A program made the position numbers and the translations under genes. Shown here in pieces: positions 966 to 41,924 of a stretch of 64,000 nt of DNA. Below the pieces are notes generated by a model, which did not search any database, was not told where the DNA came from, and was given only the letters and a program-made list of their open reading frames with translations. Every line of letters starts with the position of its first letter. The first letter of the stretch is position 1. Source of the DNA: an uncultured Candidatus Saccharibacteria bacterium (lineage in GTDB: Bacteria; Patescibacteriota; Minisyncoccia; UBA6257; 2-01-FULL-56-20); contig CAYLWL010000002.1 in NCBI GenBank assembly GCA_964387675.1, forward strand, positions 22,514 through 86,513. Direction: 5' to 3'.

Positions 966-2210
966 ATGCGCGATATCAAATCTCTCAAGTCCCTTATGGA
1001 AAATCAGCTCGGACAGCCGTTCGAGAAGATTTCCGTGATCAATCTGGTGGATTTGCTTGTGGAGTACGCCTACAGCACGAAGGCCTCGGATATCCATATT
1101 CCACCCACGAGGGCTGGCTCGAGAATTCGCTTTCGCATCGACGGCCTGCTTCAGGATATTTTCGACAAGTCCAAAATTTCCAACGATCTGCATCAAGAAA
1201 TCATCGCGAGGATCAAAGTGCTGTCCGGTTTGAGGACGGACGAGCACTTTTTGCCGCAGGACGGAAGATTCAGGGTCAAAATCGAAGAGTTCGGCGATGT
1301 GGACATAAGAGTTTCCATCATGCCGACGTACTACGGCGAGAACGTGATCATGAGGGTCTTGGCGGAGAGCCAGAATTTCAAATTGGAGGACATGGGTTTT
1401 TCCCCAAACGACATTAAAAAAGTGGAAAGCGCGATCAGCAAATCCTTCGGGATGATTCTCGCGAACGGCCCCACGGGTTCGGGAAAAACCACCACGCTCT
1501 ACACGATTTTGCGGCGGCTCAACAGCCCGGAGGTCTCCATCATCACCATCGAGGACCCGATAGAGTATTCTCTTGACGGCACCACGCAGATTCAAATCAA
1601 CGAGCAGGTGGGGCTCACCTTCGCGAACGGTCTGCGATCCATTTTGCGCCAGGACCCGAACATCATCATGGTCGGCGAAATCCGCGACGAAGACACCGCG
1701 GCCATCGCCGTGAACGCTGCCCTTACGGGGCACTTGGTGCTCTCCACGCTCCACACGAACGACGCCGCCACCACATTCCCGCGGCTCCTTGATATGGGCG
1801 TGCCGCCGTTCCTCGTTGCTTCCACCGTGAACATCGCGACCGGCCAGCGGCTCGTGAGAACATTGTGCCAGGACTGCAAAACGAAGAGGGCATTGAAAGA
1901 CGAAGAAGTCAAAAGCTTATCGGAGCTTTTGCCGGAAATAGCGAAGATGGGCGAGAAAAACTTTTTCGCTCCGAATCCGAAAGGGTGCGACGCGTGCGGC
2001 CAGAGCGGATATCGGGGAAGGATCGGCATCCGTGAAGTGATCGAGGTGAACGAAGAAATCAGGCAGCTTGTGATGAATCGCGCCAACGCGACTCAGATCA
2101 AAGAAGCGGCGATTCGGAACGGGATGACGACGATGATAGAAGATGGTTTGCAAAAGGCGGCCAAAGGGCTGACTTCGATCGAAGAGATCATACGGATTAT
2201 ACATGAATAA
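966..2210 (+). CDS. pilB: type IV pilus assembly / type II secretion ATPase, PilB/GspE family (short form)
   Basis: Walker A GPTGSGKTTT, Asp box IIMVGEIRDEDTA, His box LVLSTLHTNDA, C-terminal Cys pairs CQDCK...CDACG. Overlaps pilC start by 8 nt. Confidence 0.85.
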   Translation: MRDIKSLKSLMENQLGQPFEKISVINLVDLLVEYAYSTKASDIHIPPTRAGSRIRFRIDGLLQDIFDKSKISNDLHQEIIARIKVLSGLRTDEHFLPQDGRFRVKIEEFGDVDIRVSIMPTYYGENVIMRVLAESQNFKLEDMGFSPNDIKKVESAISKSFGMILANGPTGSGKTTTLYTILRRLNSPEVSIITIEDPIEYSLDGTTQIQINEQVGLTFANGLRSILRQDPNIIMVGEIRDEDTAAIAVNAALTGHLVLSTLHTNDAATTFPRLLDMGVPPFLVASTVNIATGQRLVRTLCQDCKTKRALKDEEVKSLSELLPEIAKMGEKNFFAPNPKGCDACGQSGYRGRIGIREVIEVNEEIRQLVMNRANATQIKEAAIRNGMTTMIEDGLQKAAKGLTSIEEIIRIIHE

Positions 2211-3285
2211 GCTCAAGCGCTTTCTCATCAGCACGTTCGGGATCGGAGGAGTGCCGATCCAGGAAAAAATCAATTTTGCCCGCCACCTCTCGATCGTCAT
2301 CAAGGCCGGGCTTCCCATCCTCGAGGGCCTGCGTCTCATCAAACGACAGACCGCTTCGCGCGCCGTGGTTTCCGTTATTGATCAGGTGATTGTGGATGTG
2401 GGCAACGGGCAATTCTTGGCAACCAGCTTGTCGAGGTATCCCCATATTTTCGACGACTTTTTCATCAGCATCGTCCGGGTGGGCGAGACGAGCGGAACGC
2501 TGGCGCAGAATTTGGTGTATCTTGCCGATGAACTCAAAAAATCTCATGACTTAAGGAACAAGGTGCGCTCGGCGATGATTTACCCCGTTATCATTATGAT
2601 CGTCACGTCCGGCCTCGTTTCTTTTTTGGTGTTTTTCGCCTTTCCGAAAATTCTGCCCCTGTTCGCGAGTTTGCGGGTTGAATTGCCTGTCACGACCCGC
2701 GTCCTGATCGCTACTACGGCATTTTTCCTCGCGCACGGCGTCTCTGTCGTTGCGGGACTGGTCGCTTTCTTTGTGGCCCTTAGAATTCTACTGATACTTC
2801 GTCCCACGAAAATGATTTCCGACCGCCTACTCATCGCCACGCCCATCTTTTCCAAGATCATCATTGACGTGAACATGGCAAATTTCACGAGGGTGCTTTC
2901 GGTTCTACTGAAGGGCGGGATCAAGATCGTGGAAGCGGTGACCATCACCTCGCAAACGTTCAATAATCTTGTGTATCGCAGGGAGCTTGCCCGGGCCGCG
3001 GAAGGCATTCAAAAAGGGGATCAGTTGGCGAAGTATCTTGCCCATGATAAAAACATTTTCCCGATGTTGCTTTCGGGTCTCATCGAGATCGGAGAAAATA
3101 CGGGGAACTTGGAGGACAACCTGACATATTTGTCCGATTACTATCGCGAAGAGGCGGAACAGAGCATCAATACTTTAACCGCGCTTATCGAGCCCCTGCT
3201 TTTGCTCCTTATGGGAATGGTGGTGGGATTCGTCGCCATTTCAATCATTTCTCCCATCTATCAGATTACCCAAGGAGTGAGATGA
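2203..3285 (+). CDS. pilC: type IV pilus platform protein PilC/GspF family
   Basis: 360-aa polytopic membrane protein with two GspF-like halves (GLPILEGLRLI..., GGIKIVEAVTI...). Directly follows pilB. Confidence 0.8.
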   Translation: MNKLKRFLISTFGIGGVPIQEKINFARHLSIVIKAGLPILEGLRLIKRQTASRAVVSVIDQVIVDVGNGQFLATSLSRYPHIFDDFFISIVRVGETSGTLAQNLVYLADELKKSHDLRNKVRSAMIYPVIIMIVTSGLVSFLVFFAFPKILPLFASLRVELPVTTRVLIATTAFFLAHGVSVVAGLVAFFVALRILLILRPTKMISDRLLIATPIFSKIIIDVNMANFTRVLSVLLKGGIKIVEAVTITSQTFNNLVYRRELARAAEGIQKGDQLAKYLAHDKNIFPMLLSGLIEIGENTGNLEDNLTYLSDYYREEAEQSINTLTALIEPLLLLLMGMVVGFVAISIISPIYQITQGVR

Positions 3286-3743
3286 CGTTCGCTCGAAATA
3301 TCGAAATTTCGAAATATCGAGATGGTTTCACTTTGACGGAGGTTTTGATCGTTGTCGGGATCCTCGCGGTTGTTTTTGCCTTTGCGATCGGCGTCGGCAT
3401 CAATTTCTACGGCGGCCAAGCCGTTGTTTCGGAACGCGACACGCTCGTGAACGTGCTCCGGGCCGCGCGCGGCCGCGCCTTGAACAATTTCGACGAATCG
3501 AGCCACGGCGTTTTTATTGCCGCCGCGCAATACGTCCTTTTCGAGGGCAATTCGTACGCCAGCCGCAACCAGGATTTCGACTCCGTATTTCCGAGAGGGA
3601 AGGGGCTCACGATGAGCGGATTGTCGGAAGTCGTTTTCAACGCGCCGCAAGGCGACGCGAACGCTTCCGGCACCATAACCCTGTCGAACGACCTTGGCAA
3701 TGCTAAAATTAATATCAACAATGAAGGAAGAATTGATTGGTAA
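3282..3743 (+). CDS. prepilin-type N-terminal cleavage/methylation domain protein (pilin/pseudopilin)
   Basis: N-terminus MTFARNIEISKYRDG|FTLTEVLIVVGILAVVFAFAIG is a class III signal with G|FTLxE and a hydrophobic helix. Overlaps pilC stop by 4 nt. Confidence 0.8.
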   Translation: MTFARNIEISKYRDGFTLTEVLIVVGILAVVFAFAIGVGINFYGGQAVVSERDTLVNVLRAARGRALNNFDESSHGVFIAAAQYVLFEGNSYASRNQDFDSVFPRGKGLTMSGLSEVVFNAPQGDANASGTITLSNDLGNAKININNEGRIDW

Positions 3744-3744
3744 A

Positions 3745-3783
3745 TTATTAGAATCTAGAATCTAGAAAATAGAAAGTAGAATT
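3745..3783. repeat. TAGAA-family hairpin arm (left arm flanking four-helix-bundle gene copy 1)
   Basis: ttattagaatctagaatctagaaaatagaaagtagaatt. The inverted partner is at 4147-4188. Confidence 0.7.
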
Positions 3784-4128
3784 ATGAGTAATACAAAATC
3801 TTTTAAAGATTTAATTGTATGGCAGAAAGCGCGGAGTTTGGCGGTTGCGGTATATAAACTTTCTGAACAATTTCCTAACGTAGAGCTATATGGCCTAACA
3901 AGTCAAATGCGTCGCGCGGCCATTTCCATTTCTTCCAACATCGCCGAAAGTTACCACCGTTTTCATAGAAAAGAAAAACAGCAGTTTCTTTCTATCGCTT
4001 TTGGCTCCGGCTCGGAACTAGAAAGCCAAATAGAAATCGCCAAAGTTTTATTTCCAAAGCTGGATTATCGAGAAAGTGAAGAATTATTGTTGGAGGTTAT
4101 GAAAATACTAAATAATTTTCTACAATGA
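3784..4128 (+). CDS. four-helix-bundle protein (23S rRNA intervening-sequence protein / DGR Avd-like family), copy 1
   Basis: 114 aa. WQKARSLAVAVYKLSEQFPNVELYGLTSQMRRAAISISSNIAESYHRF matches the S23-ribosomal/IVS four-helix-bundle family. Flanked by inverted TAGAA repeats. Confidence 0.8.
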   Translation: MSNTKSFKDLIVWQKARSLAVAVYKLSEQFPNVELYGLTSQMRRAAISISSNIAESYHRFHRKEKQQFLSIAFGSGSELESQIEIAKVLFPKLDYRESEELLLEVMKILNNFLQ

Positions 4129-5558
4129 TCAAAATCGAAAAATTAAAAATAGTTCTTCTACTTTCTATTTTCTATTTTCTACCTTCTCGTAAGCGGGGGC
4201 AGTCCACGATTGAGATTTTGATCGCGGTGACGATTCTGACCGCGGTTTTGACGAGCGCCGCCGCGCTCATTTTCGGCAGCCAATCGCTCTCGGTTGATTC
4301 CGCGGAAAGTAATCAGGCATTGCGTCTCGCCGAACAGGGCTTGGAGGGCGTCAAAAATCAGGCCAGATACGACTTCCTCAACATCGTTTCGAGCACCGTG
4401 ACGCAGGGTGAGTTCACGAAAAACATCATTGTCTCGAATGTAGGCGCGAACACGAAGCAAGTGGTAAGCCGCGTTACGTGGAGCACCGATCCGCAGAGAA
4501 CCCAGCAAGTCGAACTCGTGACGCTTGTGACGGATTGGCGCGGCGTGCAGGACACCGGCGGAGACACGGGGAGCGGCGGCGGTGGCGGCGGCGCTTCTGG
4601 CGACTGGTGCAATCCCGCAACCCTCGGCACGATCGATTTGGGATCGGGTGAGTCGGCGACGGGCATCGATGTGATCGCAACAACGACCTATATGACGGCA
4701 GTCGCTTCCTCCCCGAGCAAGAAGGACTTTTTCATCGTTGATGTTTCCAATTCCAGCACTCCTTCCATTATCGGGTCCATAGACACCGGGCCGGGACTCA
4801 ATGCTCTGGACGTGACGGCAAACTACGCTTATGTCGCGAGCGACGACAGCTCCAAGCAATTCCAAGCCATCGACGTCAGCAACAAGACCAGCCCGGTTCT
4901 CGTTGCATCCACCACTCTTACGAGCAATTCCGCCGTTGGACGGAGTATTTTTTACCATAATCAAAAAGTATATATCGGCACGGACGACAATAGTGGAAAC
5001 GAATTCCAGATTATCGACGTGGCCACTCCCGCAACCCCCGTGATTTTGGGAAGAGCTTCTTTGGATGAAGATGTGAATTCCATTTACGTGAGCGGGAACA
5101 AGGCATATCTTGCAACATCCGATACGTCGAAAGACGTGCAGATTTTCGATGTGTCGACTTCATCCGCGCCCGCGCTTCTTGGCACGTATGACATTTCGGG
5201 TGCCGGAGAAACGAAATGGCTGTATGTGGTTGGCACGAAAATGTATGTGGGCAGAGAAACCGGAGGAGATGAACTTTATGTATTGGATATTACGAATGCC
5301 ACTTCGGTGTCGGTGTTGGGCCATAAGGCGATCGGCAAAACGGTGAACGCGATTACAGTGCGCGGCAATTACGCGTTCCTTGCCACCTCCGACCCGAACA
5401 ACGAGCTCAAGATATTCGACGTTTCCAATCTTTCAAATATCACTTCCTGCAGTAACTTCAACTTTCCCAACATCGCGACCGCCGTCGATTTCGACGCCAA
5501 TCTGGTGTACACCGCCGTGCGATCGAACGACGGCCTGCGCATCGTGACATCGCAATAA
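4125..5558 (+). CDS. prepilin-like N-terminus fused to an LVIVD-repeat beta-propeller domain protein
   Basis: N-terminal KRGQSTIEILIAVTILTAVLTSAAALIFG is a pilin-type G/x-T-x-E plus TM. A Gly-rich linker (GGDTGSGGGGGGASGD) is followed by at least six repeats of the pattern xxIxDVSNxSxPxxxG (FIVDVSNSSTPSIIGS, QAIDVSNKTSPVLVAS, QIIDVATPATPVILGR, QIFDVSTSSAPALLGT, YVLDITNATSVSVLGH, KIFDVSNLSNITSCS). These are typical of LVIVD repeats. True start codon uncertain. Confidence 0.65.
   Translation: MIKIEKLKIVLLLSIFYFLPSRKRGQSTIEILIAVTILTAVLTSAAALIFGSQSLSVDSAESNQALRLAEQGLEGVKNQARYDFLNIVSSTVTQGEFTKNIIVSNVGANTKQVVSRVTWSTDPQRTQQVELVTLVTDWRGVQDTGGDTGSGGGGGGASGDWCNPATLGTIDLGSGESATGIDVIATTTYMTAVASSPSKKDFFIVDVSNSSTPSIIGSIDTGPGLNALDVTANYAYVASDDSSKQFQAIDVSNKTSPVLVASTTLTSNSAVGRSIFYHNQKVYIGTDDNSGNEFQIIDVATPATPVILGRASLDEDVNSIYVSGNKAYLATSDTSKDVQIFDVSTSSAPALLGTYDISGAGETKWLYVVGTKMYVGRETGGDELYVLDITNATSVSVLGHKAIGKTVNAITVRGNYAFLATSDPNNELKIFDVSNLSNITSCSNFNFPNIATAVDFDANLVYTAVRSNDGLRIVTSQ
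4147..4188. repeat. TAGAA-family hairpin arm (right arm); also encodes N-terminus of the following pilin-like ORF
   Basis: tagttcttctactttctattttctattttctaccttctcg is the reverse-complement partner of 3745-3783. It translates in frame as VLLLSIFYFLPSR preceding KRG|QSTIE. Confidence 0.7.
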
Positions 5559-5560
5559 AA

Positions 5561-5600
5561 TTAGAATTTAGTAGCTAGTATCTAGAAACTAGAATGCGAG
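5561..5600. repeat. TAGAA-family hairpin arm
   Basis: ttagaatttagtagctagtatctagaaactagaatgcgag. Partner at 5635-5668. Confidence 0.65.
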
Positions 5601-5624
5601 AAATAACCAACGCAAACGCAATTT

Positions 5625-6155
5625 ATGAATAAAATACTAGATTCTAGATTCCAGATTCTAGATTCTCGCAGAGGGTTTACCTTGATGGAGACCTTGATTT
5701 ACATCGCTCTTTTTTCCGTCATTACGAGCTATGTCCTTGGCGTGTTCTATCAACTCCTCGGCAGCCGCAACCAAAATCGCGACAGGACGGAAGTTGACGC
5801 GGAAGCGAACTTTCTCATGCAGAAACTGCGGTGGGCAATGAGCGGCGTCCAAACCGTCAACCAGCCGGCGACAGGCGCCACTTCGACGACGCTATCGGTC
5901 ACAAAGTACAATTTCGCGCAGAACCCGATCGTATTCGACCTTGATTCCAGTACCCTCCGAATGGCAAAGGGTGGGGGAGCGGCGGTAATTTTAAACAATA
6001 GCCGCGTGGGAGTGGGCCAGCTGACATTCGAGCGCCTGGCTCCGGTGAGTAACGCTCCGGAAGGAGTTACCATAACATTGTCGGTATCGTCCCTTGATGT
6101 TGAGCGGCCGGTCGTCGCTTCCACCACTATCGTGGACACCATTTATTTAAGGTAA
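5625..6155 (+). CDS. prepilin-type N-terminal cleavage/methylation domain protein (pseudopilin)
   Basis: MNKILDSRFQILDSRRG|FTLMETLIYIALFSVITSYVLG is a canonical class III signal peptide. Confidence 0.8.
   Translation: MNKILDSRFQILDSRRGFTLMETLIYIALFSVITSYVLGVFYQLLGSRNQNRDRTEVDAEANFLMQKLRWAMSGVQTVNQPATGATSTTLSVTKYNFAQNPIVFDLDSSTLRMAKGGGAAVILNNSRVGVGQLTFERLAPVSNAPEGVTITLSVSSLDVERPVVASTTIVDTIYLR
5635..5668. repeat. TAGAA-family hairpin arm that encodes the pilin leader peptide
   Basis: tactagattctagattccagattctagattctcg translates as ILDSRFQILDSR immediately before RG|FTLMETLI. Confidence 0.65.
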
Positions 6156-6207
6156 TAAGCTAGCTTTTAGGTGTTAGCTGTTAGGTTTTAGAAAACAAAT
6201 AAATAAA

Positions 6208-6648
6208 ATGAGAGAAAAGTTCTATCATATCGGCAACCTACTAAAAGCTATAAGCTATAAGCTAAAAGCCCGGGTTGGCTACATCGGCATCGTGTCGGCG
6301 CTTATCATATCGGCCGTTGTGGTTCTGATTATGGTCGCGGTGGGGCAGATTTCGTTCTTGAACCGCATCAACATTTCCGACACCCACTTAAAAAAGAAAA
6401 GCCGGGCGCTCGCGGAGGGGTGCGTCGACACAGCGCTCTTGAAGCTCGCGTCGAACGCTTCCTACGCCGGCAACGAAACCATCACTGTTGCGAGCGATAC
6501 ATGCAAAATCGTTTCCGTGGTTTCGTCGAGTACGGGAAAGATCATTTCTGCCCAGGGCAAGTTCCTCGGCGCGGTGACGGATGTCAAGGCGACCGTTGAC
6601 ACCAACACCTTCTCGATCGTGGGCTGGGAAGAGGTGAGGAGTTTTTGA
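6208..6648 (+). CDS. hypothetical membrane protein in pilus operon (possible minor pilin/PilX-like)
   Basis: 146 aa with one N-terminal TM helix (IGIVSALIISAVVVLIMVAVG). No recognisable motif. Confidence 0.4.
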   Translation: MREKFYHIGNLLKAISYKLKARVGYIGIVSALIISAVVVLIMVAVGQISFLNRINISDTHLKKKSRALAEGCVDTALLKLASNASYAGNETITVASDTCKIVSVVSSSTGKIISAQGKFLGAVTDVKATVDTNTFSIVGWEEVRSF

Positions 6649-6691
6649 TTAGAAAGTAGAATTTAGAAAATAGAAAGTAGAATCTGGAAAA
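6649..6691. repeat. TAGAA-family hairpin arm
   Basis: ttagaaagtagaatttagaaaatagaaagtagaatctggaaaa. Partner at 6710-6747. Confidence 0.65.
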
Positions 6692-6693
6692 CT

Positions 6694-7191
6694 ATGAAAA
6701 ATTTAAAAACAACTTCTATTTTCTATTTTCTAGATTCTAGATTCTCGAATAAGGGTTTCACTTTGATAGAGGTCGTCATATCGGTGGCAATCATTACGCT
6801 CCTTACGGTTGCTGCCATTGTTATTCTCGATCCCGCTCGGCAGTTTGCCAAATCGAGAAACACACAGCGCTGGTCGGATGTGAATGTGATTTTGAATGCG
6901 GTTGGGCAAAACACCGTTGACAACCGCGGAACTTTTTCGTGCAGTTCCGGCGGGATTCCCACGACTACGACGAGGATGGCGTCCAGCAGTCCGAACTACA
7001 ATATCGCGCCGTGCCTTGTAGCGACCTATTTAAGCGCCTTGCCGTTCGATCCGGCAACGAGCGGCGCGAAGTGGACGAGCGTAACCGATTACGACACCGC
7101 TTATAACATCCTGCGAAACGCCACAACCGGCCGCGTGACGATTTCCGCTCCGGCGGCCGAACTTGGGGAGAGCGTTACGGTCACGAGGTAG
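6694..7191 (+). CDS. prepilin-type N-terminal cleavage/methylation domain protein (pilin)
   Basis: MKNLKTTSIFYFLDSRFSNKG|FTLIEVVISVAIITLLTVAAIVIL. Confidence 0.8.
   Translation: MKNLKTTSIFYFLDSRFSNKGFTLIEVVISVAIITLLTVAAIVILDPARQFAKSRNTQRWSDVNVILNAVGQNTVDNRGTFSCSSGGIPTTTTRMASSSPNYNIAPCLVATYLSALPFDPATSGAKWTSVTDYDTAYNILRNATTGRVTISAPAAELGESVTVTR
6710..6747. repeat. TAGAA-family hairpin arm encoding pilin leader
   Basis: aacttctattttctattttctagattctagattctcg translates as TSIFYFLDSRFS before NKG|FTLIEV. Confidence 0.65.
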
Positions 7192-12619: not shown

Positions 12620-12650
12620 GATATGAGATATGAGAGATGAGGTCATAAAC
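12606..12650. repeat. ATGAGA-family hairpin arm (left arm flanking four-helix-bundle gene copy 2)
   Basis: agaaagaaatgagatatgagatatgagagatgaggtc. Provides the ATG of the 4HB ORF. Confidence 0.7.
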
Positions 12651-13004
12651 GAAGAAAAGTTTATTTTCGAGGATTTAAGGGTGTATCATAGAGCGTTGCA
12701 GCTTGCCGTTGAGCTTACTAAAATTGCAACAAAACTCCCCCACAGTTACTCGAGGATACGAGACCAGTTAATCGGGGCAGTTATTTCTATCCCATTAAAT
12801 CTTGCCGAAGGATCAGGTAGGTTGGGTGAAAAGGATAAAAAGAACTTCTATAAATTTAGTCGCTCTTCGGCATTTGAACTGATTCCAATTATTGATATAA
12901 TTTACCAATTAGAGCTTATCAACAAAGAGAAAAGAAATAATATTCGCCGCGAAGTTGTAGAACTTTCGCGTATCATTTCTGCTTTAATAAAAAAATCGTC
13001 CTAA
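12630..13004 (+). CDS. four-helix-bundle protein (23S rRNA IVS protein / Avd-like), copy 2
   Basis: KFIFEDLRVYHRALQLAVELTKIATKLPHSYSRIRDQLIGAVISIPLNLAEGSGR. Paralog of the 28266-28637 copy (about 60-65% identity by eye). Confidence 0.8.
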   Translation: MRDEVINEEKFIFEDLRVYHRALQLAVELTKIATKLPHSYSRIRDQLIGAVISIPLNLAEGSGRLGEKDKKNFYKFSRSSAFELIPIIDIIYQLELINKEKRNNIRREVVELSRIISALIKKSS

Positions 13005-27023: not shown

Positions 27024-27635
27024 TCATCGTCCTCCGTGCTCGTGGCGGTGGCTGAAAACGACATAGACCCTGAATGCGTTTTGTTCGGAGCGCCTGAACT
27101 GGTACGCCGCCGCGGTTGCCACCTTGAATTTCCCCAAGATTCCGAGTGGCAAACTTACGCGCGGTCCGGCGCCGAGAGAATCCAAGCCCCCTTTGTGCAC
27201 GTTTTCGGTTTCGGCACCGATATTGACCTTGCGCCAAACTCCCTCTTCGACGATGACCATATCGTACATGGCCCTTCTGTCAAGGAACGGAGCGGCCTCG
27301 ACATACAAAGACGTTCTCCCGGACTGATACTGGAAACGGTTATCGAGCAGGATCTTTTCGCCTTTGGCGCTCCATTGCCGTTGCACCATTGATTCCAGCC
27401 ACCATTTTTTGTTGTCGCTTCTGTAGCCAATTCCTCCAAAGAGGTTGATATTGTCGGTTCCGTATACTTGGGCGTTGCCAATAACCCATCCCGCGAGAAA
27501 CCAGTTTTGAGCGACATCCGCTTGTTCGTGGAGAATCGTTCGGTTTTGCCAATCCGTAATCTCTTGGGCCTCCAAGCGCGAAGTTGAAAATACAAGCACA
27601 ACTGCGAAAGGCAGTAACCGGAGAAACGATTTCAT
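27024..27635 (-). CDS. hypothetical secreted beta-rich protein with signal peptide
   Basis: MKSFLRLLPFAVVLVFSTSRLEAQE signal peptide. Alternating aromatic/polar pattern. No family motif recognised. Confidence 0.45.
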   Translation of the reverse strand: MKSFLRLLPFAVVLVFSTSRLEAQEITDWQNRTILHEQADVAQNWFLAGWVIGNAQVYGTDNINLFGGIGYRSDNKKWWLESMVQRQWSAKGEKILLDNRFQYQSGRTSLYVEAAPFLDRRAMYDMVIVEEGVWRKVNIGAETENVHKGGLDSLGAGPRVSLPLGILGKFKVATAAAYQFRRSEQNAFRVYVVFSHRHEHGGR

Positions 27636-27817
27636 GAATCACCTCTTGGTTATCAAGCGAAGCTGGGTGGATTATAGACGGTCTCAATGATTTTGTCAAC
27701 GACCAAATGAGTTGTTCTGTTTCAATTCGAGGGAATTGGTATAATAAACTAGCAAAGTGCTAAGAGCTAATAGCTGGGGGTTTATCGTCAGCGTTAAAAC
27801 GATTTGCCCTTTGCTCT

Positions 27818-28234
27818 TTGCCATTAGCCGCAACTATGGACCAACCCTCTCAATCATTTGAACATGAAGCCCTCGAGGCCGATATTAAAGCCCTTGCGCA
27901 GGAAGTCGAGAAACATCGCGAACTTCCGGAGAATAAAGGCGTGAGCGGGCAGGAGTTGTTAAAGAAAGCAATCCGTGCCTTGCCGCCGGTTTCAACCGCG
28001 ACAGAGCCCGTCTCAAAACCCTCACGGCCGAGTCCGCTCCCGCAGTACGCGCAAAGCGCCTCGCCGGAAGTCCGTCTTGAAATCGAGTACTTGATTGACT
28101 TGGCTTTCCACGCCGGTATCGGTAAGGCCTCGGCGGAAGCGAAGAAATCCCCCGATTTCGTGCAAGACGCTTTTCATGACGCCTTGGCCGGAAAACTGTA
28201 CCCGATGTTTCAGGAGAGGGGAATACTTAAATAG
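27818..28234 (+). CDS. hypothetical protein
   Basis: 138-aa ORF, acidic helical. Preceded by a ctttgctctttgcc repeat. Confidence 0.35.
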   Translation: MPLAATMDQPSQSFEHEALEADIKALAQEVEKHRELPENKGVSGQELLKKAIRALPPVSTATEPVSKPSRPSPLPQYAQSASPEVRLEIEYLIDLAFHAGIGKASAEAKKSPDFVQDAFHDALAGKLYPMFQERGILK

Positions 28235-28265
28235 AGATTAGAGATGAGAAATGAGATATTAGGAT
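28222..28265. repeat. ATGAGA-family hairpin arm (left arm flanking four-helix-bundle copy 3)
   Basis: tagagattagagatgagaaatgagatattaggatatgagc. Confidence 0.7.
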
Positions 28266-28637
28266 ATGAGCAATGAAAAATTTATTTTTGAAGATTTAAG
28301 GGTTTATCACGGGGCATTAAAACTTTCAGTGGAGCTTACTAAGCTGGCTACGAAATTTCCACACGACTATTCGAGAATACAAAATCAATTAATTGGAGCA
28401 GCTATTTCTGTTCCCTTGAATCTCGCCGAGGGTTCTGGAAGGGAAAGCGATAAGGATAAAAAGAATTTTTATAGAATTAGTAGATCATCTATTTTTGAAC
28501 TCGTGCCTCTTATTGATATAATTTACGAACTAGGACTCATAGGAAGCGACAAGCGAGATGAAATTCGTCACGAAGTTGCGGAACTTTCGCGAATTGTTTC
28601 CACCTTAATGAAAAACAAAGTTTCTCAAAAGTCCTAA
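28266..28637 (+). CDS. four-helix-bundle protein (23S rRNA IVS protein / Avd-like), copy 3
   Basis: MSNEKFIFEDLRVYHGALKLSVELTKLATKFPHDYSRIQNQLIGAAISVPLNLAEGSGR. Confidence 0.8.
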   Translation: MSNEKFIFEDLRVYHGALKLSVELTKLATKFPHDYSRIQNQLIGAAISVPLNLAEGSGRESDKDKKNFYRISRSSIFELVPLIDIIYELGLIGSDKRDEIRHEVAELSRIVSTLMKNKVSQKS

Positions 28638-28662
28638 TTTCTCATTTCTAATATCTCATCTC
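28625..28662. repeat. ATGAGA-family hairpin arm (right arm)
   Basis: cctaatttctcatttctaatatctcatctctaaat. The same right arm recurs at 59630-59665 and 36765-36780. Confidence 0.7.
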
Positions 28663-28667
28663 TAAAT

Positions 28668-31040
28668 ATGTTTATTTACTTCCTTATGGGTTTTATCGTA
28701 AGCGCCGTTTTGGGCGTGAGTATTTATTTTTTGGCACGGCACATCGTTCGAGGCAAGCTTTTCGCGTCTTTGGGAATGACGCTCTTGCTCATCAAGATTC
28801 CCCGCGAAACCTCCGCCCAAAACGCGCCGGAAAAAGATTTCAAAACGGAGATTAATCGATTCGAGCAGCTTTTGGGCGGGCTCGCTTCTTTGAAGAAGCC
28901 GGTTGTGTTTGAGGCGGCGGTGCCCCACGTCGGCGAGGAAATCCATTTTTATCTCGCGGTGCCCAAAAAAATGATGGAGGTAGCCATAAAACAAGTCCAG
29001 GGTTTGTGGAACGGAGCGAGCGTCGACATCGCCCCTGATGACTTCAATATCTTTAACGCCAATGGCGCGACCTCGGCCGCCTATATTATGCAGAAAGAAA
29101 ACTATGCCTTGCCGATTCGGAGTTACTTGGAACTTGGGCTCGATTCGTTCGCGTCCGTTATCGGCGGCTTTTCGAAGGTTGCCGAAATTGGCGAAGGCGC
29201 GGCGCTGCAAATTGTTCTGCGGCCCGGCCCGAAAGACGCCAAGAAAAAAATCCACGGTTTCATCCAATCCCTCAAAAAGGGCGAGCCGCTCAAAAAAGTG
29301 TTCGGCCACGAATTTCCGGTGAGTTTCTCGGAGATCGGCCAGGCCCTGAATCCCAAGAAAGAGGAAGAGAAGAAAGAGAAGATCGTCGACGAAGAGGCGG
29401 TGAAGGCGCTCGAAATGAAAATAACAAAGCCCTTATTTGAGGTGAACGTGAGGGTGGTATGCTCGGCGGGTTCCAAATTCCAGTCGGATGATATTTTGGA
29501 CGGTATCACCGCGGGTTTCAATCAATTCGGCAGTCCGAGGAGGAATGAGTTCAGGGTGGTAAAACCGAGAAACCCAAACACGGTGGCTCGCCAGTTCATA
29601 TTCCGGAATTTTGAGTCCTCGCAAAGAATGCTACTCTCTGCCGAGGAAATCGCGAGCTTCTATCATTTTCCGACGGCGCTCACCGAAACGCCTCGAATCA
29701 AATGGCTCAAGTCCAAAGAAGCCCCGCCGCCCGCAAACTTGCCCGCGAGCGGCATCCAGATAGGAGAGAGTTTATTCCGCGGCCAGACGAAGCCCGTATA
29801 TATAACACACGAGGATAGGCGGCGGCATGTGTATACCATCGGTCAGACGGGTACGGGAAAATCCACGCTTTTGGGCAATATGATTATCGAAGACATCAAG
29901 CAGGGGAGGGGCGTGGCAATCATCGATCCTCACGGCGATCTGGTGGGCAACGCCTTGGGTTTTATTCCGAAAGACCGGATTGACGACTTGATTTATTTCG
30001 ACCCCGCGGATCTTGAAAGGCCGCTTGGACTCAACATGCTGGATTATAATTTTGATCGTCCCGAAGAGAAGACATTCATCGTGAACGAGATGCAGAGTAT
30101 CTTTAACAAACTGTTCCCACCGGAGACGATGGGCCCGATGTTCGAGCAGTATATGAGGAACGCGCTTTTGCTTTTAATGGAAGACATGCCCAACGAACCG
30201 GCGACGCTCATTGAGGTCCCCAGGGTTTTTACGGACGCAGAGTACCGCGCGCGCAAACTCGAGCGGATTCAGAATCCCGTGGTCATCGATTTTTGGGAAA
30301 AAGAAGCGGTGAAGGCGGGAGGCGAAGCGTCTCTTGCCAATATGACGCCGTATATCACCTCTAAATTCAACAACTTCATTTCGAACGACTATATGCGGCC
30401 GATTATCGGCCAGGCGAAGTCGGCGTTCAATTTCAGAAAGGTGATGGATGAAGGAAAGATTTTACTCATCAATCTTTCCAAGGGAAGGATTGGAGACATC
30501 AACGCCGGACTTCTCGGCATGGTGTTCACCGGAAAGATTTTGATGGCCGCTTTGTCGAGAGTGGACATAGCCGAGGTTGAGAGGCGGCGTGACTTTAATC
30601 TCTACATAGACGAATTCCAAAACTTCACGACGGATTCCATCGCCACGATTCTCTCTGAGGCAAGAAAATACAAATTGAATCTGACGATGGCGCACCAGTT
30701 CATTGCCCAGCTCACGGAAAAAATCCGCGACGCGGTTTTCGGCAACGTCGGTTCGCAGATTGTGTTTCGCGTCGGCGTGCAGGATGCGGAGTTTTTGGTG
30801 AAGCAGTTCGAGCCGGTGTTTAGTCAGAACGATTTATTGAATATCGACAACTTGAACGCCTACGCGAAGATTTTAATCAACGGCGAAACGTCAAAACCCT
30901 TTAACATTAAAATTCTTACCACTTCCTGGGGAGCGGGCGACAAAGACATGGCCCAAAAGCTAAGGGAATACTCAAGGATGAAATACGGCATGGATCGGCA
31001 GGGGATCGAGGCGGAGATTTATAGGAGGTTGCGAGAGTAA
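28668..31040 (+). CDS. membrane-anchored P-loop ATPase of the VirD4/TraD/TraG type IV coupling-protein-like family
   Basis: N-terminal TM (FIYFLMGFIVSAVLGVSIYFL). HVYTIGQTGTGKSTLLGNMI (Walker A), then AIIDPHGDLVGNALGFIPKDRIDDLIYFDPAD, which parallels the TrwB/VirD4 block (vIvDPnGD...ilnP.d), and LYIDEFQNF (Walker B). Confidence 0.55.
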   Translation: MFIYFLMGFIVSAVLGVSIYFLARHIVRGKLFASLGMTLLLIKIPRETSAQNAPEKDFKTEINRFEQLLGGLASLKKPVVFEAAVPHVGEEIHFYLAVPKKMMEVAIKQVQGLWNGASVDIAPDDFNIFNANGATSAAYIMQKENYALPIRSYLELGLDSFASVIGGFSKVAEIGEGAALQIVLRPGPKDAKKKIHGFIQSLKKGEPLKKVFGHEFPVSFSEIGQALNPKKEEEKKEKIVDEEAVKALEMKITKPLFEVNVRVVCSAGSKFQSDDILDGITAGFNQFGSPRRNEFRVVKPRNPNTVARQFIFRNFESSQRMLLSAEEIASFYHFPTALTETPRIKWLKSKEAPPPANLPASGIQIGESLFRGQTKPVYITHEDRRRHVYTIGQTGTGKSTLLGNMIIEDIKQGRGVAIIDPHGDLVGNALGFIPKDRIDDLIYFDPADLERPLGLNMLDYNFDRPEEKTFIVNEMQSIFNKLFPPETMGPMFEQYMRNALLLLMEDMPNEPATLIEVPRVFTDAEYRARKLERIQNPVVIDFWEKEAVKAGGEASLANMTPYITSKFNNFISNDYMRPIIGQAKSAFNFRKVMDEGKILLINLSKGRIGDINAGLLGMVFTGKILMAALSRVDIAEVERRRDFNLYIDEFQNFTTDSIATILSEARKYKLNLTMAHQFIAQLTEKIRDAVFGNVGSQIVFRVGVQDAEFLVKQFEPVFSQNDLLNIDNLNAYAKILINGETSKPFNIKILTTSWGAGDKDMAQKLREYSRMKYGMDRQGIEAEIYRRLRE

Positions 31041-31077
31041 AATGGATAAGGGACGCTTGAGTGAGCGTCCCTTGTTG

Positions 31078-40911: not shown

Positions 40912-41628
40912 TTATTCTTTGAATGCTTTGATTATCGGATCGAGGTCGCCATCCAAGATTCGTACTATATTATGAAACTTTTTCCCAAGGCGGTGATCGG
41001 TGATCCGGTCGTCGGGGAAGTTGTAGGTTCTGATTTTTTCCGAGCGGTCGCCGGTGCCCACCTGTTCCCTGCGCGTTGCGCCGAGTTTTCGAGCATCCGT
41101 TTCTTTTTGGAGGTCGTAGAGTTTCGCTCGTAACACCGCCATCGCCCGCTCGCGGTTCGCGTGCTGGGCTCGTTCCACGCGCGAGGAAACGACGATGCCG
41201 GTCGGTTTGTGGAGAATTCGCACCGCGCTCTCTATCTTGTTGACGTTTTGCCCGCCGGGGCCTCCGGCGCGCGAAAAAGTTACCTCAAGGTCATTCGGGT
41301 TTATAGTTACTTCTTTCGGTTCGACTTCCGGGATAATGGCAACGGTTGCGGTTGAGGTGTGAACCCGGCCGGACTTCTCGGTGTCCGGTATCCTCTGGAT
41401 TCGGTGAACGCCGGACTCATGCCGAAGCGCCTCCAATATTCCGGCGCCGCCAACCTCGGCCACAAAAGTTTTGTACCCGTTGAGCGACGTTTGATTCGAG
41501 TCGAGAACCGCGAACGACCAGCCCCGCTTCGCGGCGTAGCGCTGGTACATTCTCGCGAGATCGCCGGCGAAGATCGCGGCTTCATCGCCGCCGACCCCTG
41601 CTCTAATTTCTAAGATAATTTTTTCCAT
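40912..41628 (-). CDS. prfA: class I peptide chain release factor, RF1-like (PDT motif), lacking N-terminal domain 1
   Basis: [26 protein letters not shown] (PxT codon-recognition motif), [22 protein letters not shown] (GGQ). Only 239 aa from MEKIIL. The 250 nt upstream is non-coding. Confidence 0.7.
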
Positions 41629-41924
41629 AATGTAGAGTATGTACGGAAATTCGCTGTTTGTCCAAATGAATAACCGCACCGCAGAGCGGTGCGGTGTCAC
41701 CGCTTAAGGATTGCGGTTATTCACCCATCCCCATTTGCTGTAAAATCTATGCATATGTACTATTTGAAGACGAAGTCGCCTTGCGGCTCTGATTGTGTAA
41801 TAGCTCAATCTCTGCCACAAATGGGGAGGGGTTTATTATTCACGCGTCGCAATTCATCCCGCCCGGGCTTCGACTGAACTCAGCCGAATGTCCAAGCGGG
41901 CGGGTATTCTTGCGAGTGAATAAT

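What the first reader, a model, noticed from the sequence alone, without database searches (positions are those of the whole stretch)
27024..31040. Cluster of secreted beta-rich protein, hypothetical, 4HB cassette and a 790-aa VirD4/TraD-like ATPase
The ATPase has one N-terminal TM and about 350 aa before the Walker A (GQTGTGKST). An IIDPHGDL...DLIYFDPADLERP block parallels T4CP ATP-binding cores. There are no relaxase, VirB4 or integrase genes nearby. This looks like a chromosomal, stand-alone coupling-protein-like ATPase, perhaps working with the T4P for DNA transfer.
Basis: partly seen in the sequence, partly recalled or inferred. Interest (0 to 1): 0.55.

Follow-up and report, generated by a model that had tools for sequence, protein, structure and literature searches.

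The report
Core coupling-protein-like ATPase of Patescibacteria
This is an ordinary, vertically inherited copy of a membrane-anchored VirD4-type (type IV coupling protein) ATPase that nearly all Patescibacteria carry away from their secretion-system genes; it works as a pair with the small gene just upstream, and its likely counterpart in the one genetically tractable relative is essential.

Summary
The sequence features are real. The 790-aa ORF (28668-31040) has one N-terminal TM helix, Walker A at aa 392-400 and the quoted motifs. No relaxase, VirB4 or integrase lies in the 64-kb window or in 9 kb sampled upstream of its low-coordinate end.

The four-gene "cluster" is not one unit:
- The 132-138-aa protein upstream is a conserved partner, adjacent or fused in frame in 59 of 80 species-representative loci.
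- The 4HB gene is a low-GC cassette flanked by inverted repeats, inserted between the two partners.
- The 203-aa secreted protein is lineage-specific.

The window is from a Candidatus Liptonbacteria MAG, and the gene sits in conserved housekeeping synteny. Stand-alone T4CP homologues in Patescibacteria were published in 2025. By synteny and a rough tree, this gene falls in the paralogue group of Southlakia SEML1_0142, which is Tn-seq essential. A link to type IV pili has no support.

Verdict: new member of a known kind.

The parts
27818..28234 (+). Small helical partner protein. The maximal ORF is 138 aa from a TTG. The likely true start is the ATG at 27836 (132 aa), which matches the N-termini of the orthologues. 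The C-terminal ~55 aa hold the conserved motif G-[IL]-x(10-13)-P-x-[FIL]-x-D-x-F-H-x-x-L.
   Evidence: No Pfam, NCBIfam or PADLOC match. It lies directly upstream of the ATPase orthologue in L001, L002, L004 and L005, at 53-59% identity with a nearly invariant C-terminus. The domain is found directly upstream of the ATPase in 59 of 80 GTDB loci, 31 times fused in frame and 28 times as a separate ORF. Profile-profile comparison of the free and fused forms gives E 2.9e-5, probability 74%. Bridging sequences P0125 and P0151 score E 1e-4 and 3e-5. The TTG-start sequence is not in the protein collection.
28668..31040 (+). 790-aa membrane-anchored T4CP-family ATPase (MBI4087478.1).
28671..28739 (+). 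Single N-terminal transmembrane helix (aa 2-24), followed by RHIVRGK. This predicts that the rest of the protein is cytoplasmic.
   Evidence: Hydropathy scan of the family: most ~800-aa members have one N-terminal TM, while the fused ~910-930-aa members have none. The topology is inferred from the positive-inside rule.
28773..29657 (+). N-terminal alpha/beta domain (aa ~36-330), Pfam DUF8128 (PF26449), with a VirB4-N-terminal-domain-like fold.
29805..31037 (+). T4CP-type nucleotide-binding domain (aa ~380-790). It contains Walker A GQTGTGKST (29841-29867), Walker B LYIDEF (30600-30617), the EARKY...AHQF motif (30657-30701), and a highly conserved all-helical insert at aa ~460-585 (30045-30422), where T4CPs carry their all-alpha domain.
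   Evidence: Pfam T4SS-DNA_transf aligns 384-685 to positions 44-347 of 468. Invariant residues are listed. Foldseek gives TrwB E 1.9e-6. The helical insert is modelled with low confidence.
28266..28637 (+). Four-helix-bundle gene (PF05635, 23S_rRNA_IVP). It is an inserted cassette and not part of the ATPase unit.
   Evidence: E 1.5e-22. It is absent between the partner gene and the ATPase in L001, L002, L004 and L005. Its GC content is 0.363 against 0.50 for the window. Two further copies sit inside other operons at 3784-4128 and 12630-13004.
28225..28264 (.). Left arm of the imperfect inverted repeat that brackets the 4HB cassette. The right arm is 28632-28671.
   Evidence: 40-nt arms, 83% complementary, 367 nt apart. 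The other two cassettes carry similar arms.
28632..28671 (.). Right arm of the inverted repeat. It reaches the ATG of the ATPase gene.
27024..27635 (-). 203-aa protein with a signal peptide (MBI4087481.1). It is a lineage-specific neighbour, not a conserved partner.
   Evidence: No family match. Relatives have a PMT_2 glycosyltransferase gene in this slot. It has its own perfect-consensus promoter-like site at 27699-27671 on the minus strand.
31048..31073 (.). GC-rich hairpin between the ATPase gene and the convergent APH-kinase gene. It is terminator-like.
   Evidence: This is a consensus match only.

Best explanation
What is shown:
- The 790-aa protein belongs to the type IV coupling protein (VirD4/TrwB) branch of the FtsK/HerA ATPases.
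- Its layout is TM helix, then DUF8128 domain, then T4CP nucleotide-binding domain with a helical insert.
- The DUF8128 domain has the fold of the VirB4 N-terminal domain.
- The same full-length layout occurs in T4CP-position proteins of monoderm conjugative clusters.
- The gene forms a conserved two-gene unit (often a fusion) with the small helical protein encoded just upstream.
- It sits in conserved housekeeping synteny in Paceibacteria and is not on a mobile element.

What is inferred:
- It assembles as a hexamer at the cytoplasmic face of the membrane.
- It docks through its VirB4-like N-domain, with the small protein as adaptor, onto the chromosomal monoderm-type T4SS that most Patescibacteria encode elsewhere, usually near dnaA.
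- It uses ATP to feed a conserved substrate into that machine. With no relaxase, the substrate is more likely protein than relaxase-piloted DNA.
- By synteny and a rough phylogeny, it belongs to the paralogue group of Southlakia epibionticum SEML1_0142. That gene and its upstream small gene SEML1_0141 are Tn-seq essential. The second paralogue, SEML1_0293, is dispensable.
For: Family assignment:
- Pfam and NCBIfam hits are T4CP-type.
- PDB profile ranking is TrwB, then DotL, then HerA.
- Identity is 31% over aa 301-747 (E 4e-65) to the Embleya T4CP, which lies between a VirB4-like ATPase and a Replic_Relax relaxase, with PrgI, TrbL-like and NlpC/P60 genes nearby.
- The Embleya N-terminus matches my N-domain HMM at E 5e-15.
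- The window protein aligns end to end (aa 93-790, E 6e-34) with a 913-aa protein next to TcpD/TcpE genes on a B. subtilis plasmid.

Partner gene.

Core, vertically inherited gene:
- 4,412 homologue clusters, at 70-87% identity across Paceibacteria.
- 5,773 50%-identity clusters with E below 1e-30.
- At least 600 GTDB species loci.
- Conserved order mreBCD, PBP2..., L21..., partner, ATPase..., PGK.

Literature:
- T4CP homologues occur in 2,918 of 3,035 Patescibacteria genomes, with only 148 near virB4. VirB4 occurs in 2,417 genomes (PMC12102498).
- The Southlakia T4SS is essential, and no coupling protein was recognised in its cluster (PMC10633639).

Link to the Southlakia essential pair:
- L093 repeats the SEML1_0137-0145 gene order around P0469, which is 36% identical to the window protein over its full length.
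- L094 repeats the SEML1_0296-0293 order around P0235.
- In NJ bootstraps the window groups with the 0142-like protein in 74 of 100 replicates, against 1 of 100 for the alternative.
Against: - No T4SS gene lies in the window or the flank that could be sampled, and the rest of this MAG could not be examined. VirB4 presence in this genome is therefore unknown; some published Liptonbacteria genomes are scored VirB4-negative.
- No experiment links any Patescibacteria T4CP homologue to the T4SS.
- Orthology with SEML1_0142 rests on synteny of a related metagenomic contig plus a crude NJ tree with 74% support. I never held the SEML1 sequences.
- The gene upstream of the Saccharimonadia orthologue shows no detectable similarity to the window's small protein (E 0.37).
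- The fused family members lack a TM helix, so membrane anchoring is not universal.
- The all-alpha-domain region is modelled with low confidence.
Confidence: 0.5

Rival explanations
1. A T4SS-independent essential translocase. On this reading the ATPase and its small partner act alone or with another envelope machine (type IV pilus with ComEC, or an unknown channel) to move DNA, nucleotides or protein across the single membrane. This includes the first reader's idea of T4P-linked DNA transfer.
For: The gene is almost never next to virB4: 148 of 5,713 cases (PMC12102498). The helical insert is nearly invariant across orders, which suggests one universal substrate. The review PMC12857230 notes cases where VirB4 and a T4CP work with a type IV pilus. 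The window also encodes T4P genes and DprA.
Against: The T4P genes are more than 20 kb away and are not syntenic with the ATPase in relatives. In Southlakia comEC is dispensable while SEML1_0142 is essential. The published counts (T4CP in 96% of genomes, VirB4 in 80%) fit two T4CP paralogues and one VirB4 per genome with about 20% per-gene dropout in MAGs. That is my own arithmetic, and it means the counts do not show independence. The VirB4-like N-domain is known as a T4SS docking module.
Confidence: 0.25
2. A HerA/FtsK-type housekeeping DNA motor that handles chromosome segregation at division or DNA repair and has been mislabelled as a T4CP.
For: The nominally best Pfam hit is DUF87, the HerA central domain (E 1.4e-7). 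HerA appears among the fold and PADLOC hits. The gene lies beside mreBCD-PBP2, or beside mraZ-mraW-ftsI-murE in L001. The likely orthologue is essential.
Against: The DUF87 match covers only the P-loop stretch 364-427. Family profiles score TrwB and DotL better than HerA and give no FtsK hit. The Pfam FtsK_SpoIIIE match is weak (E 0.027, below its cut-off). No HerA barrel domain or FtsK gamma domain was detected. Southlakia keeps a canonical, essential FtsK, SEML1_0096. The closest non-Patescibacteria full-length relatives sit in conjugation clusters.
Confidence: 0.08
3. A remnant or active part of an integrated conjugative or mobilisable element.
For: The family is homologous to conjugative T4CPs. 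The neighbouring 4HB cassette is low-GC.
Against: The gene's GC content (0.505) equals that of the window. It occupies the same housekeeping position in four related genomes. No relaxase, integrase, VirB4 or repeat boundaries were found in the window or the sampled flank. It has 70-87% identity across many genera.
Confidence: 0.03
4. A component of an anti-phage defence system, for example of the MADS type.
For: PADLOC mad8 scores E 3.2e-15 over aa 375-740.
Against: The small, 4HB and 203-aa proteins gave no PADLOC match (other neighbours were not scanned with PADLOC). The match is to the generic ATPase core. The gene is core and syntenic, and no neighbouring gene carries a defence-related Pfam domain.
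Confidence: 0.03

Closest known systems
T4CP homologues of Patescibacteria surveyed by Quinonero-Coronel et al. 2025 (Microb Genom, PMC12102498)
   Same: They are chromosomal VirD4-type ATPases found in about 96% of genomes, almost always far from virB4 and without a relaxase. The authors already raised possible exaptation. [quoted passage not shown]
   Different: This particular MAG is not in the part of their tables I could read. In the main text and the readable part of the supplements I found no mention of the VirB4-like N-domain, the small partner or its fusion, or two paralogue clades. They cite the Southlakia T4CP homologue as non-essential. That fits SEML1_0293, whereas SEML1_0142 is scored essential.
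T4CPs of monoderm conjugative elements with a long N-terminal domain: the Embleya sp. plasmid NZ_CP108778 812-aa protein and the B. subtilis plasmid CP120602 913-aa protein
   Same: The full-length layout is the same: an N-terminal hydrophobic segment (Embleya), a DUF8128-like domain and a T4CP ATPase. Identity is 31% over 456 aa to the Embleya protein and 23% over about 700 aa to the B. subtilis protein.
   Different: Those genes lie inside conjugation clusters with VirB4, VirB6/TrbL, PrgI, a relaxase and cell-wall hydrolases. The window gene lies among housekeeping genes and has a dedicated small partner.
TrwB (R388) and VirD4 (Ti), the canonical proteobacterial coupling proteins
   Same: They share the P-loop motifs, the position of the helical insert, and the best PDB sequence and fold matches for the ATPase half.
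   Different: From established knowledge, TrwB has two N-terminal TM helices and no 300-aa cytoplasmic N-domain, and it acts with a relaxosome. Sequence similarity here is detectable mainly around the P-loop.
VirB4/TrwK
   Different: The ATPase half scores as T4CP, not VirB4. It gives E 2e-4 to a VirB4-like protein against 4e-65 to the T4CP of the same cluster. There are no CagE_TrbE_VirB or AAA_10 Pfam hits. From established knowledge, VirB4 has no TM helix and no T4CP-type helical insert.
Southlakia epibionticum SEML1_0141/SEML1_0142 (Wang et al. 2023, PMC10633639, Tables S1 and S2)
   Same: A small hypothetical gene (139 aa) lies 12 nt upstream of a long TraM-recognition-domain ATPase whose P-loop domain starts near aa 381. 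Both are scored essential. A syntenic relative of SEML1_0142 carries DUF8128 and is 36% identical to the window protein over its full length.
   Different: SEML1_0142 has a ~220-aa C-terminal extension. Homology between the small proteins could not be detected. Orthology is inferred, not shown.

Membership tests
Type IV coupling protein (VirD4/TrwB family) | FtsK/HerA-superfamily P-loop domain with Walker A and Walker B motifs | tested here: met
   GQTGTGKST is at aa 392-400 and LYIDEF at 645-650. G392, G395, G397, K398, D648 and E649 are invariant or nearly invariant in the family alignments.
Type IV coupling protein (VirD4/TrwB family) | Matches the curated T4CP sequence profiles | tested here: met
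   Pfam T4SS-DNA_transf scores 29.5 bits (cut-off 20.1), TraG-D_C 26.0 (22) and TrwB_AAD_bind 23.2 (20.5). TrwB and DotL are the top PDB sequence hits with the family profile. NCBIfam TraD/VirD4 models hit, but far below their own cut-offs (53.5 against 366 for the subfamily model SXT_TraD), so it is not a member of any curated T4CP subfamily.
Type IV coupling protein (VirD4/TrwB family) | All-alpha domain inserted in the nucleotide-binding domain | tested here: inconclusive
   An all-helical, highly conserved insert at aa ~460-585 lies at the equivalent position and aligns with the Embleya T4CP. The AF2 confidence there is below 50, and the Pfam TrwB_AAD_bind match covers only the P-loop part.
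Type IV coupling protein (VirD4/TrwB family) | N-terminal membrane anchor | tested here: met
   There is one TM helix at aa 2-24, where canonical proteobacterial T4CPs have two. Fused relatives lack it.
Type IV coupling protein (VirD4/TrwB family) | Genetic association with a relaxase and/or a VirB4-containing T4SS | tested here: not met
   None is present in the 64-kb window or in 9 kb beyond its low-coordinate end. The rest of the genome could not be examined. This is typical for Patescibacteria (PMC12102498).
Type IV coupling protein (VirD4/TrwB family) | Recruits substrates to a T4SS channel (the functional definition) | not testable with these tools
   This needs genetics or biochemistry.
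VirB4 | VirB4-type N-terminal domain | tested here: met
VirB4 | VirB4-type C-terminal ATPase (CagE_TrbE_VirB, AAA_10 or TraC profiles) | tested here: not met
   No such Pfam hits. TIGR00929 scores 21 bits against a cut-off of 643. BLAST to a VirB4-like protein gives E 2e-4, against 4e-65 to the T4CP of the same cluster.
HerA / FtsK-SpoIIIE DNA translocases | HerA barrel N-domain or FtsK alpha/beta/gamma domains, with best profile matches to those families | tested here: not met
   DUF87 hits only aa 364-427. FtsK_SpoIIIE scores E 0.027, below its cut-off, and HerA_C scores E 0.032. PDB profile hits to HerA (E 0.03 or weaker) are weaker than those to TrwB and DotL, and no FtsK chain is matched.
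DUF8128 (PF26449)-T4CP family of Patescibacteria | TM or fused small domain, then DUF8128, then T4CP ATPase, with the small helical partner upstream | tested here: met
   PF26449 is precomputed on the identical protein P0001 and on every listed homologue. The partner is upstream in 59 of 80 loci.

The most novel reading that the evidence does not exclude
The small protein and the ATPase together would be the missing, essential coupling motor of the Patescibacteria T4SS. This is a phylum-wide, vertically inherited two-component ATPase that keeps a VirB4-type N-terminal docking domain fused to a T4CP motor. Such a layout could be the ancestral form of T4CPs, lost in proteobacterial VirD4/TrwB. 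With no relaxase, it would deliver a conserved non-relaxosome substrate into host cells. This would explain why the Southlakia T4SS cluster seems to lack a coupling protein, and it would give a defined handle (the SEML1_0141/0142 type) on what that essential machine transports.
Probability: 0.3. Interest if true: 0.65.

Novelty: new member of a known kind. Interest (0 to 1): 0.42.

Why it matters
Patescibacteria are a very large, mostly uncultured bacterial group that live on other cells. Their T4SS is the first one shown to be essential to its owner, yet its substrate and its power source are unknown.

This gene is an ordinary member of a family already counted as T4CP homologues in a 2025 survey. 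Three points from this analysis sharpen the open question:
- The 350-aa "unknown" N-terminal region has the fold of the VirB4 N-terminal domain, which in VirB4 is the part that docks onto the T4SS inner-membrane complex.
- The ATPase always travels with a small helical partner, and the two are often fused.
- There appear to be two paralogue clades. The one that includes this gene corresponds to a gene pair scored essential in Southlakia, whereas the published remark that the T4CP homologue is non-essential fits the other clade.

Together these give a concrete, testable candidate for the coupling ATPase of the essential T4SS.

Tried and rejected
- **Full-length AF2 model.** A shallow alignment gave only pLDDT 65, with the helical insert unresolved. 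Its Foldseek TM-scores are low, so I used it only for ranking.
- **Pairwise BLAST of the small protein against the fused variants.** It was insignificant (E 0.08-0.2). Only HMM and profile-profile tests showed the link.
- **The small protein and the 203-aa protein against PDB sequences.** Nothing meaningful came back, only designed helical bundles and a chance phage hit.
- **Searching papers for DUF8128.** No papers. I also found no paper describing a VirB4-like N-domain in T4CPs.
- **AFDB50 fold search.** The library was not available.
- **Looking up this MAG's accession in the Quinonero-Coronel supplement.** It was not found, and the stored file is truncated.
- **Extending the window past its high-coordinate end.** The look-up returned only a 3-kb contig.
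- **FtsK-replacement idea.** Rejected, because Southlakia has a canonical, essential FtsK.
- **Defence-system idea.** Rejected on context, despite the PADLOC mad8 hit.
- **The pLS20 coupling protein.** pLS20 gene 48 is a 786-aa protein with two TM helices (PMC8557374). I could not show that the 913-aa B. subtilis plasmid protein is that gene, so I describe it only by its Tcp-like neighbours.
- **Homology of the Saccharimonadia upstream 210-aa protein to the window's small protein.** Not detected.

Full report
**1. Observation**

The four ORFs exist as described. The 790-aa ORF (28668-31040, + strand) has these features:
- one hydrophobic helix at aa 2-24, followed by basic residues;
- Walker A GQTGTGKST at aa 392-400;
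- IIDPHGDL at aa 418-425 and DLIYFDPADLERP at aa 440-452;
- Walker B LYIDEF at aa 645-650.

[quoted passage not shown] The source is a Candidatus Liptonbacteria MAG (GCA_016204365.1, contig JACQKV010000013.1).

The 123-aa protein is a PF05635/TIGR02436 four-helix-bundle protein. The 203-aa protein has a clear signal peptide but no family match. Its beta-richness was not tested.

The rest of the window is housekeeping:
- a T4P cluster at 966-7191;
- scpAB, mreBCD-PBP2, ribosomal protein L21 and PGK;
- parAB, relA, topA and dprA;
- mraZ-mraW-ftsI-murE.

Five tRNAs are the only Rfam or ARAGORN hits, and none lies in the region of interest. No relaxase, VirB4 or integrase was found in the window or in 9 kb sampled beyond its low-coordinate end. 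About a dozen ORFs have no Pfam match, and several short ORFs were not scanned.

**2. What the ATPase is**

Sequence evidence places the C-terminal half in the T4CP (VirD4/TrwB) branch:
- Pfam T4SS-DNA_transf aligns aa 384-685 to positions 44-347 of 468. TraG-D_C and TrwB_AAD_bind also pass their gathering scores. DUF87, nominally the best hit, covers only the P-loop stretch 364-427.
- The best NCBIfam hits are TraD/VirD4 families, all far below their curated cut-offs.
- Family profiles searched against PDB sequences rank TrwB first (6e-5 with A1, 1.8e-6 with the more diverse A5). DotL follows at 5.7e-4 and HerA at 0.03 or weaker. Neither VirB4 nor FtsK appears.
- A tblastn of aa 350-790 against plasmids finds 665 records.
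- The best full-architecture relative is an 812-aa Embleya protein. It is 31% identical over aa 301-747 (E 4e-65).
- That Embleya gene lies between a VirB4-like ATPase (AAA_10/TraC hits) and a Replic_Relax relaxase. PrgI, TrbL-like and NlpC/P60 genes are nearby, so this is a bona fide monoderm conjugation cluster.
- Against the VirB4-like protein of that same cluster, the window protein scores only E 2e-4.

**3. The 350 aa before the P-loop**

All homologues carry the precomputed Pfam domain PF26449 (DUF8128). I modelled aa 30-352 with a 60-sequence alignment and obtained pLDDT 87.3 and pTM 0.86.

No RecA-like ATPase chain (TrwB, HerA, or a VirB4 C-terminal-domain entry) appears in that list. 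I therefore infer that the match is to the VirB4 N-terminal domain. This agrees with the collinear full-length Foldseek matches to TrwK (E 1.6e-9 over about 900 alignment columns).

The layout is not peculiar to Patescibacteria. The Embleya T4CP N-terminus matches my N-domain HMM at E 5e-15. A 913-aa protein next to TcpD/TcpE genes on a B. subtilis plasmid aligns with the window protein from aa 93 to 790 (E 6e-34).

So the protein has a VirB4-like N-domain joined to a T4CP motor. I found no paper that describes this. That is absence from the searchable library, not proof of novelty.

**4. What belongs with it**

In four related genomes the order is mreBCD, PBP2, a galT-like gene, x, L21..., PMT_2 (minus strand), a small protein, the ATPase..., PGK. 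One relative has mraZ-mraW-ftsI-murE upstream instead.

*The small protein.* The 119-138-aa protein is always directly upstream. Its C-terminal ~55 aa are nearly invariant.

*Fused forms.* Many ~910-930-aa family members lack the TM helix and carry an N-terminal extension with the same motif. Three tests link the free and fused forms:
- HMM hits to the bridging sequences P0125 and P0151 (E 1e-4 and 3e-5);
- hhalign between the free and fused forms (E 2.9e-5, probability 74%);
- a scan of 80 GTDB species-representative loci. The domain lies directly upstream in 59 of them (55 of the 71 with enough upstream DNA). It is fused in frame in 31 and a separate ORF in 28.

A more distant lineage has the pair after the ribosomal-protein, secY, adk and map block. 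The small gene and the ATPase are thus a two-component unit.

*The 4HB gene.* It is absent from this position in the relatives. Its GC content is 0.36 against 0.50 for the window, and it is bracketed by 40-nt imperfect inverted repeats. Two sister cassettes sit inside the pilin operon and between scpA and scpB. It is an insertion.

*The 203-aa gene.* It occupies the slot where relatives have PMT_2, and it has its own promoter-like site. It is not a partner.

**5. Distribution and prior knowledge**

The family has 4,412 90%-identity clusters with E at or below 1e-5 among the candidates scored. Identity is 70-87% across Paceibacteria. There are 5,773 50%-identity clusters with E below 1e-30 and at least 600 loci in GTDB representatives. 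Nearly all named loci are Patescibacteria lineages. A few carry other labels (for example Gammaproteobacteria, Bdellovibrionales, Bacillota), which I take to be unreliable bin labels.

Quinonero-Coronel et al. 2025 (PMC12102498) reported:
- 5,713 VirD4-type T4CP homologues in 2,918 of 3,035 Patescibacteria genomes;
- only 148 of them near virB4;
- VirB4 in 2,417 genomes;
- almost no relaxases, and possible exaptation.

My own arithmetic: one VirB4 and two T4CP paralogues per genome, with about 20% per-gene dropout in MAGs, reproduces the 80% and 96% figures. The counts therefore do not argue for independence from the T4SS.

Wang et al. 2023 (PMC10633639) found the Southlakia T4SS essential and saw no coupling protein in its cluster.

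**6. Link to essential genes**

Wang's Tables S1 and S2 list two long T4CP-like ATPases:
- SEML1_0293 (921 aa) is scored NE/NE/NE.
- SEML1_0142 (1019 aa, P-loop domain 381-800) is scored ES/ES/ES.
- SEML1_0141, a 139-aa gene 12 nt upstream of SEML1_0142, is scored GD/ES/ES with no insertions recovered at T0-T2.

I could not obtain the SEML1 sequences. Two metagenomic contigs stand in for them:
- L093 repeats the order infC, yifB, x, x, ATPase, gyrB, gyrA, as in SEML1_0137-0145. Its ATPase (P0469) carries DUF8128 and is 36% identical to the window protein over its full length.
- L094 repeats topA, sigma factor, ATPase, as in SEML1_0296-0293.

An NJ tree of 139 family members rooted on the two plasmid T4CPs puts the window protein with the 0142-like protein rather than the 0293-like one. 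Bootstrap support is 74 of 100 against 1 of 100. This is moderate support from a crude method.

The protein upstream of P0469 is not detectably related to the window's small protein.

**7. Mechanism**

Shown:
- T4CP-type motor;
- VirB4-like N-domain;
- TM anchor;
- conserved small partner, adjacent or fused;
- core chromosomal gene.

Inferred:
- A hexamer forms at the membrane.
- The N-domain docks onto the inner-membrane part of the chromosomal T4SS, as the TrwK N-domain does in R388 (established knowledge).
- The small protein acts as an auxiliary adaptor.
- The strongly conserved helical insert recognises a conserved substrate.

I give this about 0.5. The main rival is a T4SS-independent essential translocase, at about 0.25. 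The other readings are unlikely:
- An FtsK-like role is disfavoured because Southlakia has a canonical, essential FtsK.
- A mobile-element origin is excluded by the synteny and base composition.
- A defence role has only a generic PADLOC ATPase hit behind it.
- The T4P idea has no support from synteny.

**8. Verdict**

The finding is real and correctly recognised as T4CP-like. It is a typical member of a family already reported as stand-alone T4CP homologues in Patescibacteria, so I rate it a new member of a known kind. The added value lies in the domain assignment, the partner gene and the probable tie to an essential gene pair.

Noticed in passing
window 3784-4128, 12630-13004, 28266-28637: There are three PF05635 (23S_rRNA_IVP, four-helix-bundle) genes, each inserted inside an otherwise conserved operon: between a pilin gene and an LVIVD protein gene, between scpA and scpB, and between the partner gene and the ATPase. 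All have GC 0.36-0.37 against 0.50 for the window. Each is bracketed by 16-40-nt purine-rich/pyrimidine-rich imperfect inverted repeats about 370 nt apart. This looks like a small mobile or RNA-processed cassette.
   Followed up: partly
window 27024-27635 (-): A 203-aa signal-peptide protein with no family match sits where related genomes encode a PMT_2 glycosyltransferase. It is preceded by a perfect TTGACA-17-TATAAT site at 27699-27671. Its sequence cluster has a single member.
   Followed up: partly
L011 7040-9412 (upstream of the window on the same contig): The purD (GARS) gene encodes 790 aa and carries a faint LAGLIDADG_3 hit, which suggests an intein or homing-endonuclease insertion.
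   Followed up: no
window 40912-41700 (-): A 262-aa protein has only the C-terminal part of the PCRF domain (profile positions 100-194) plus an RF-1 domain, so it is an N-terminally short class-I release-factor-like protein. A full-length 348-aa release factor lies upstream of the window.
   Followed up: no
window 4125-5558 (+): A 477-aa LVIVD-repeat beta-propeller protein is encoded inside the type IV pilus gene cluster, between pilin-like genes. It may be a pilus-associated adhesin.
   Followed up: no
L010 (JGI 3300056626 contig): In this locus the DUF8128 ATPase, ParB and an ABC ATPase are all split into several short ORFs under translation table 11. This is consistent with an organism that reads UGA as a sense codon (Gracilibacteria or Absconditabacteria type) rather than with pseudogenes.
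   Followed up: no
P0172-P0197 (family representatives of 1,100-2,000 aa): One clade of the family, close to the Saccharimonadia SEML1_0142-like proteins in the NJ tree, carries very long C-terminal extensions of up to about 1,200 aa of unknown nature.
   Followed up: no
   Followed up: no
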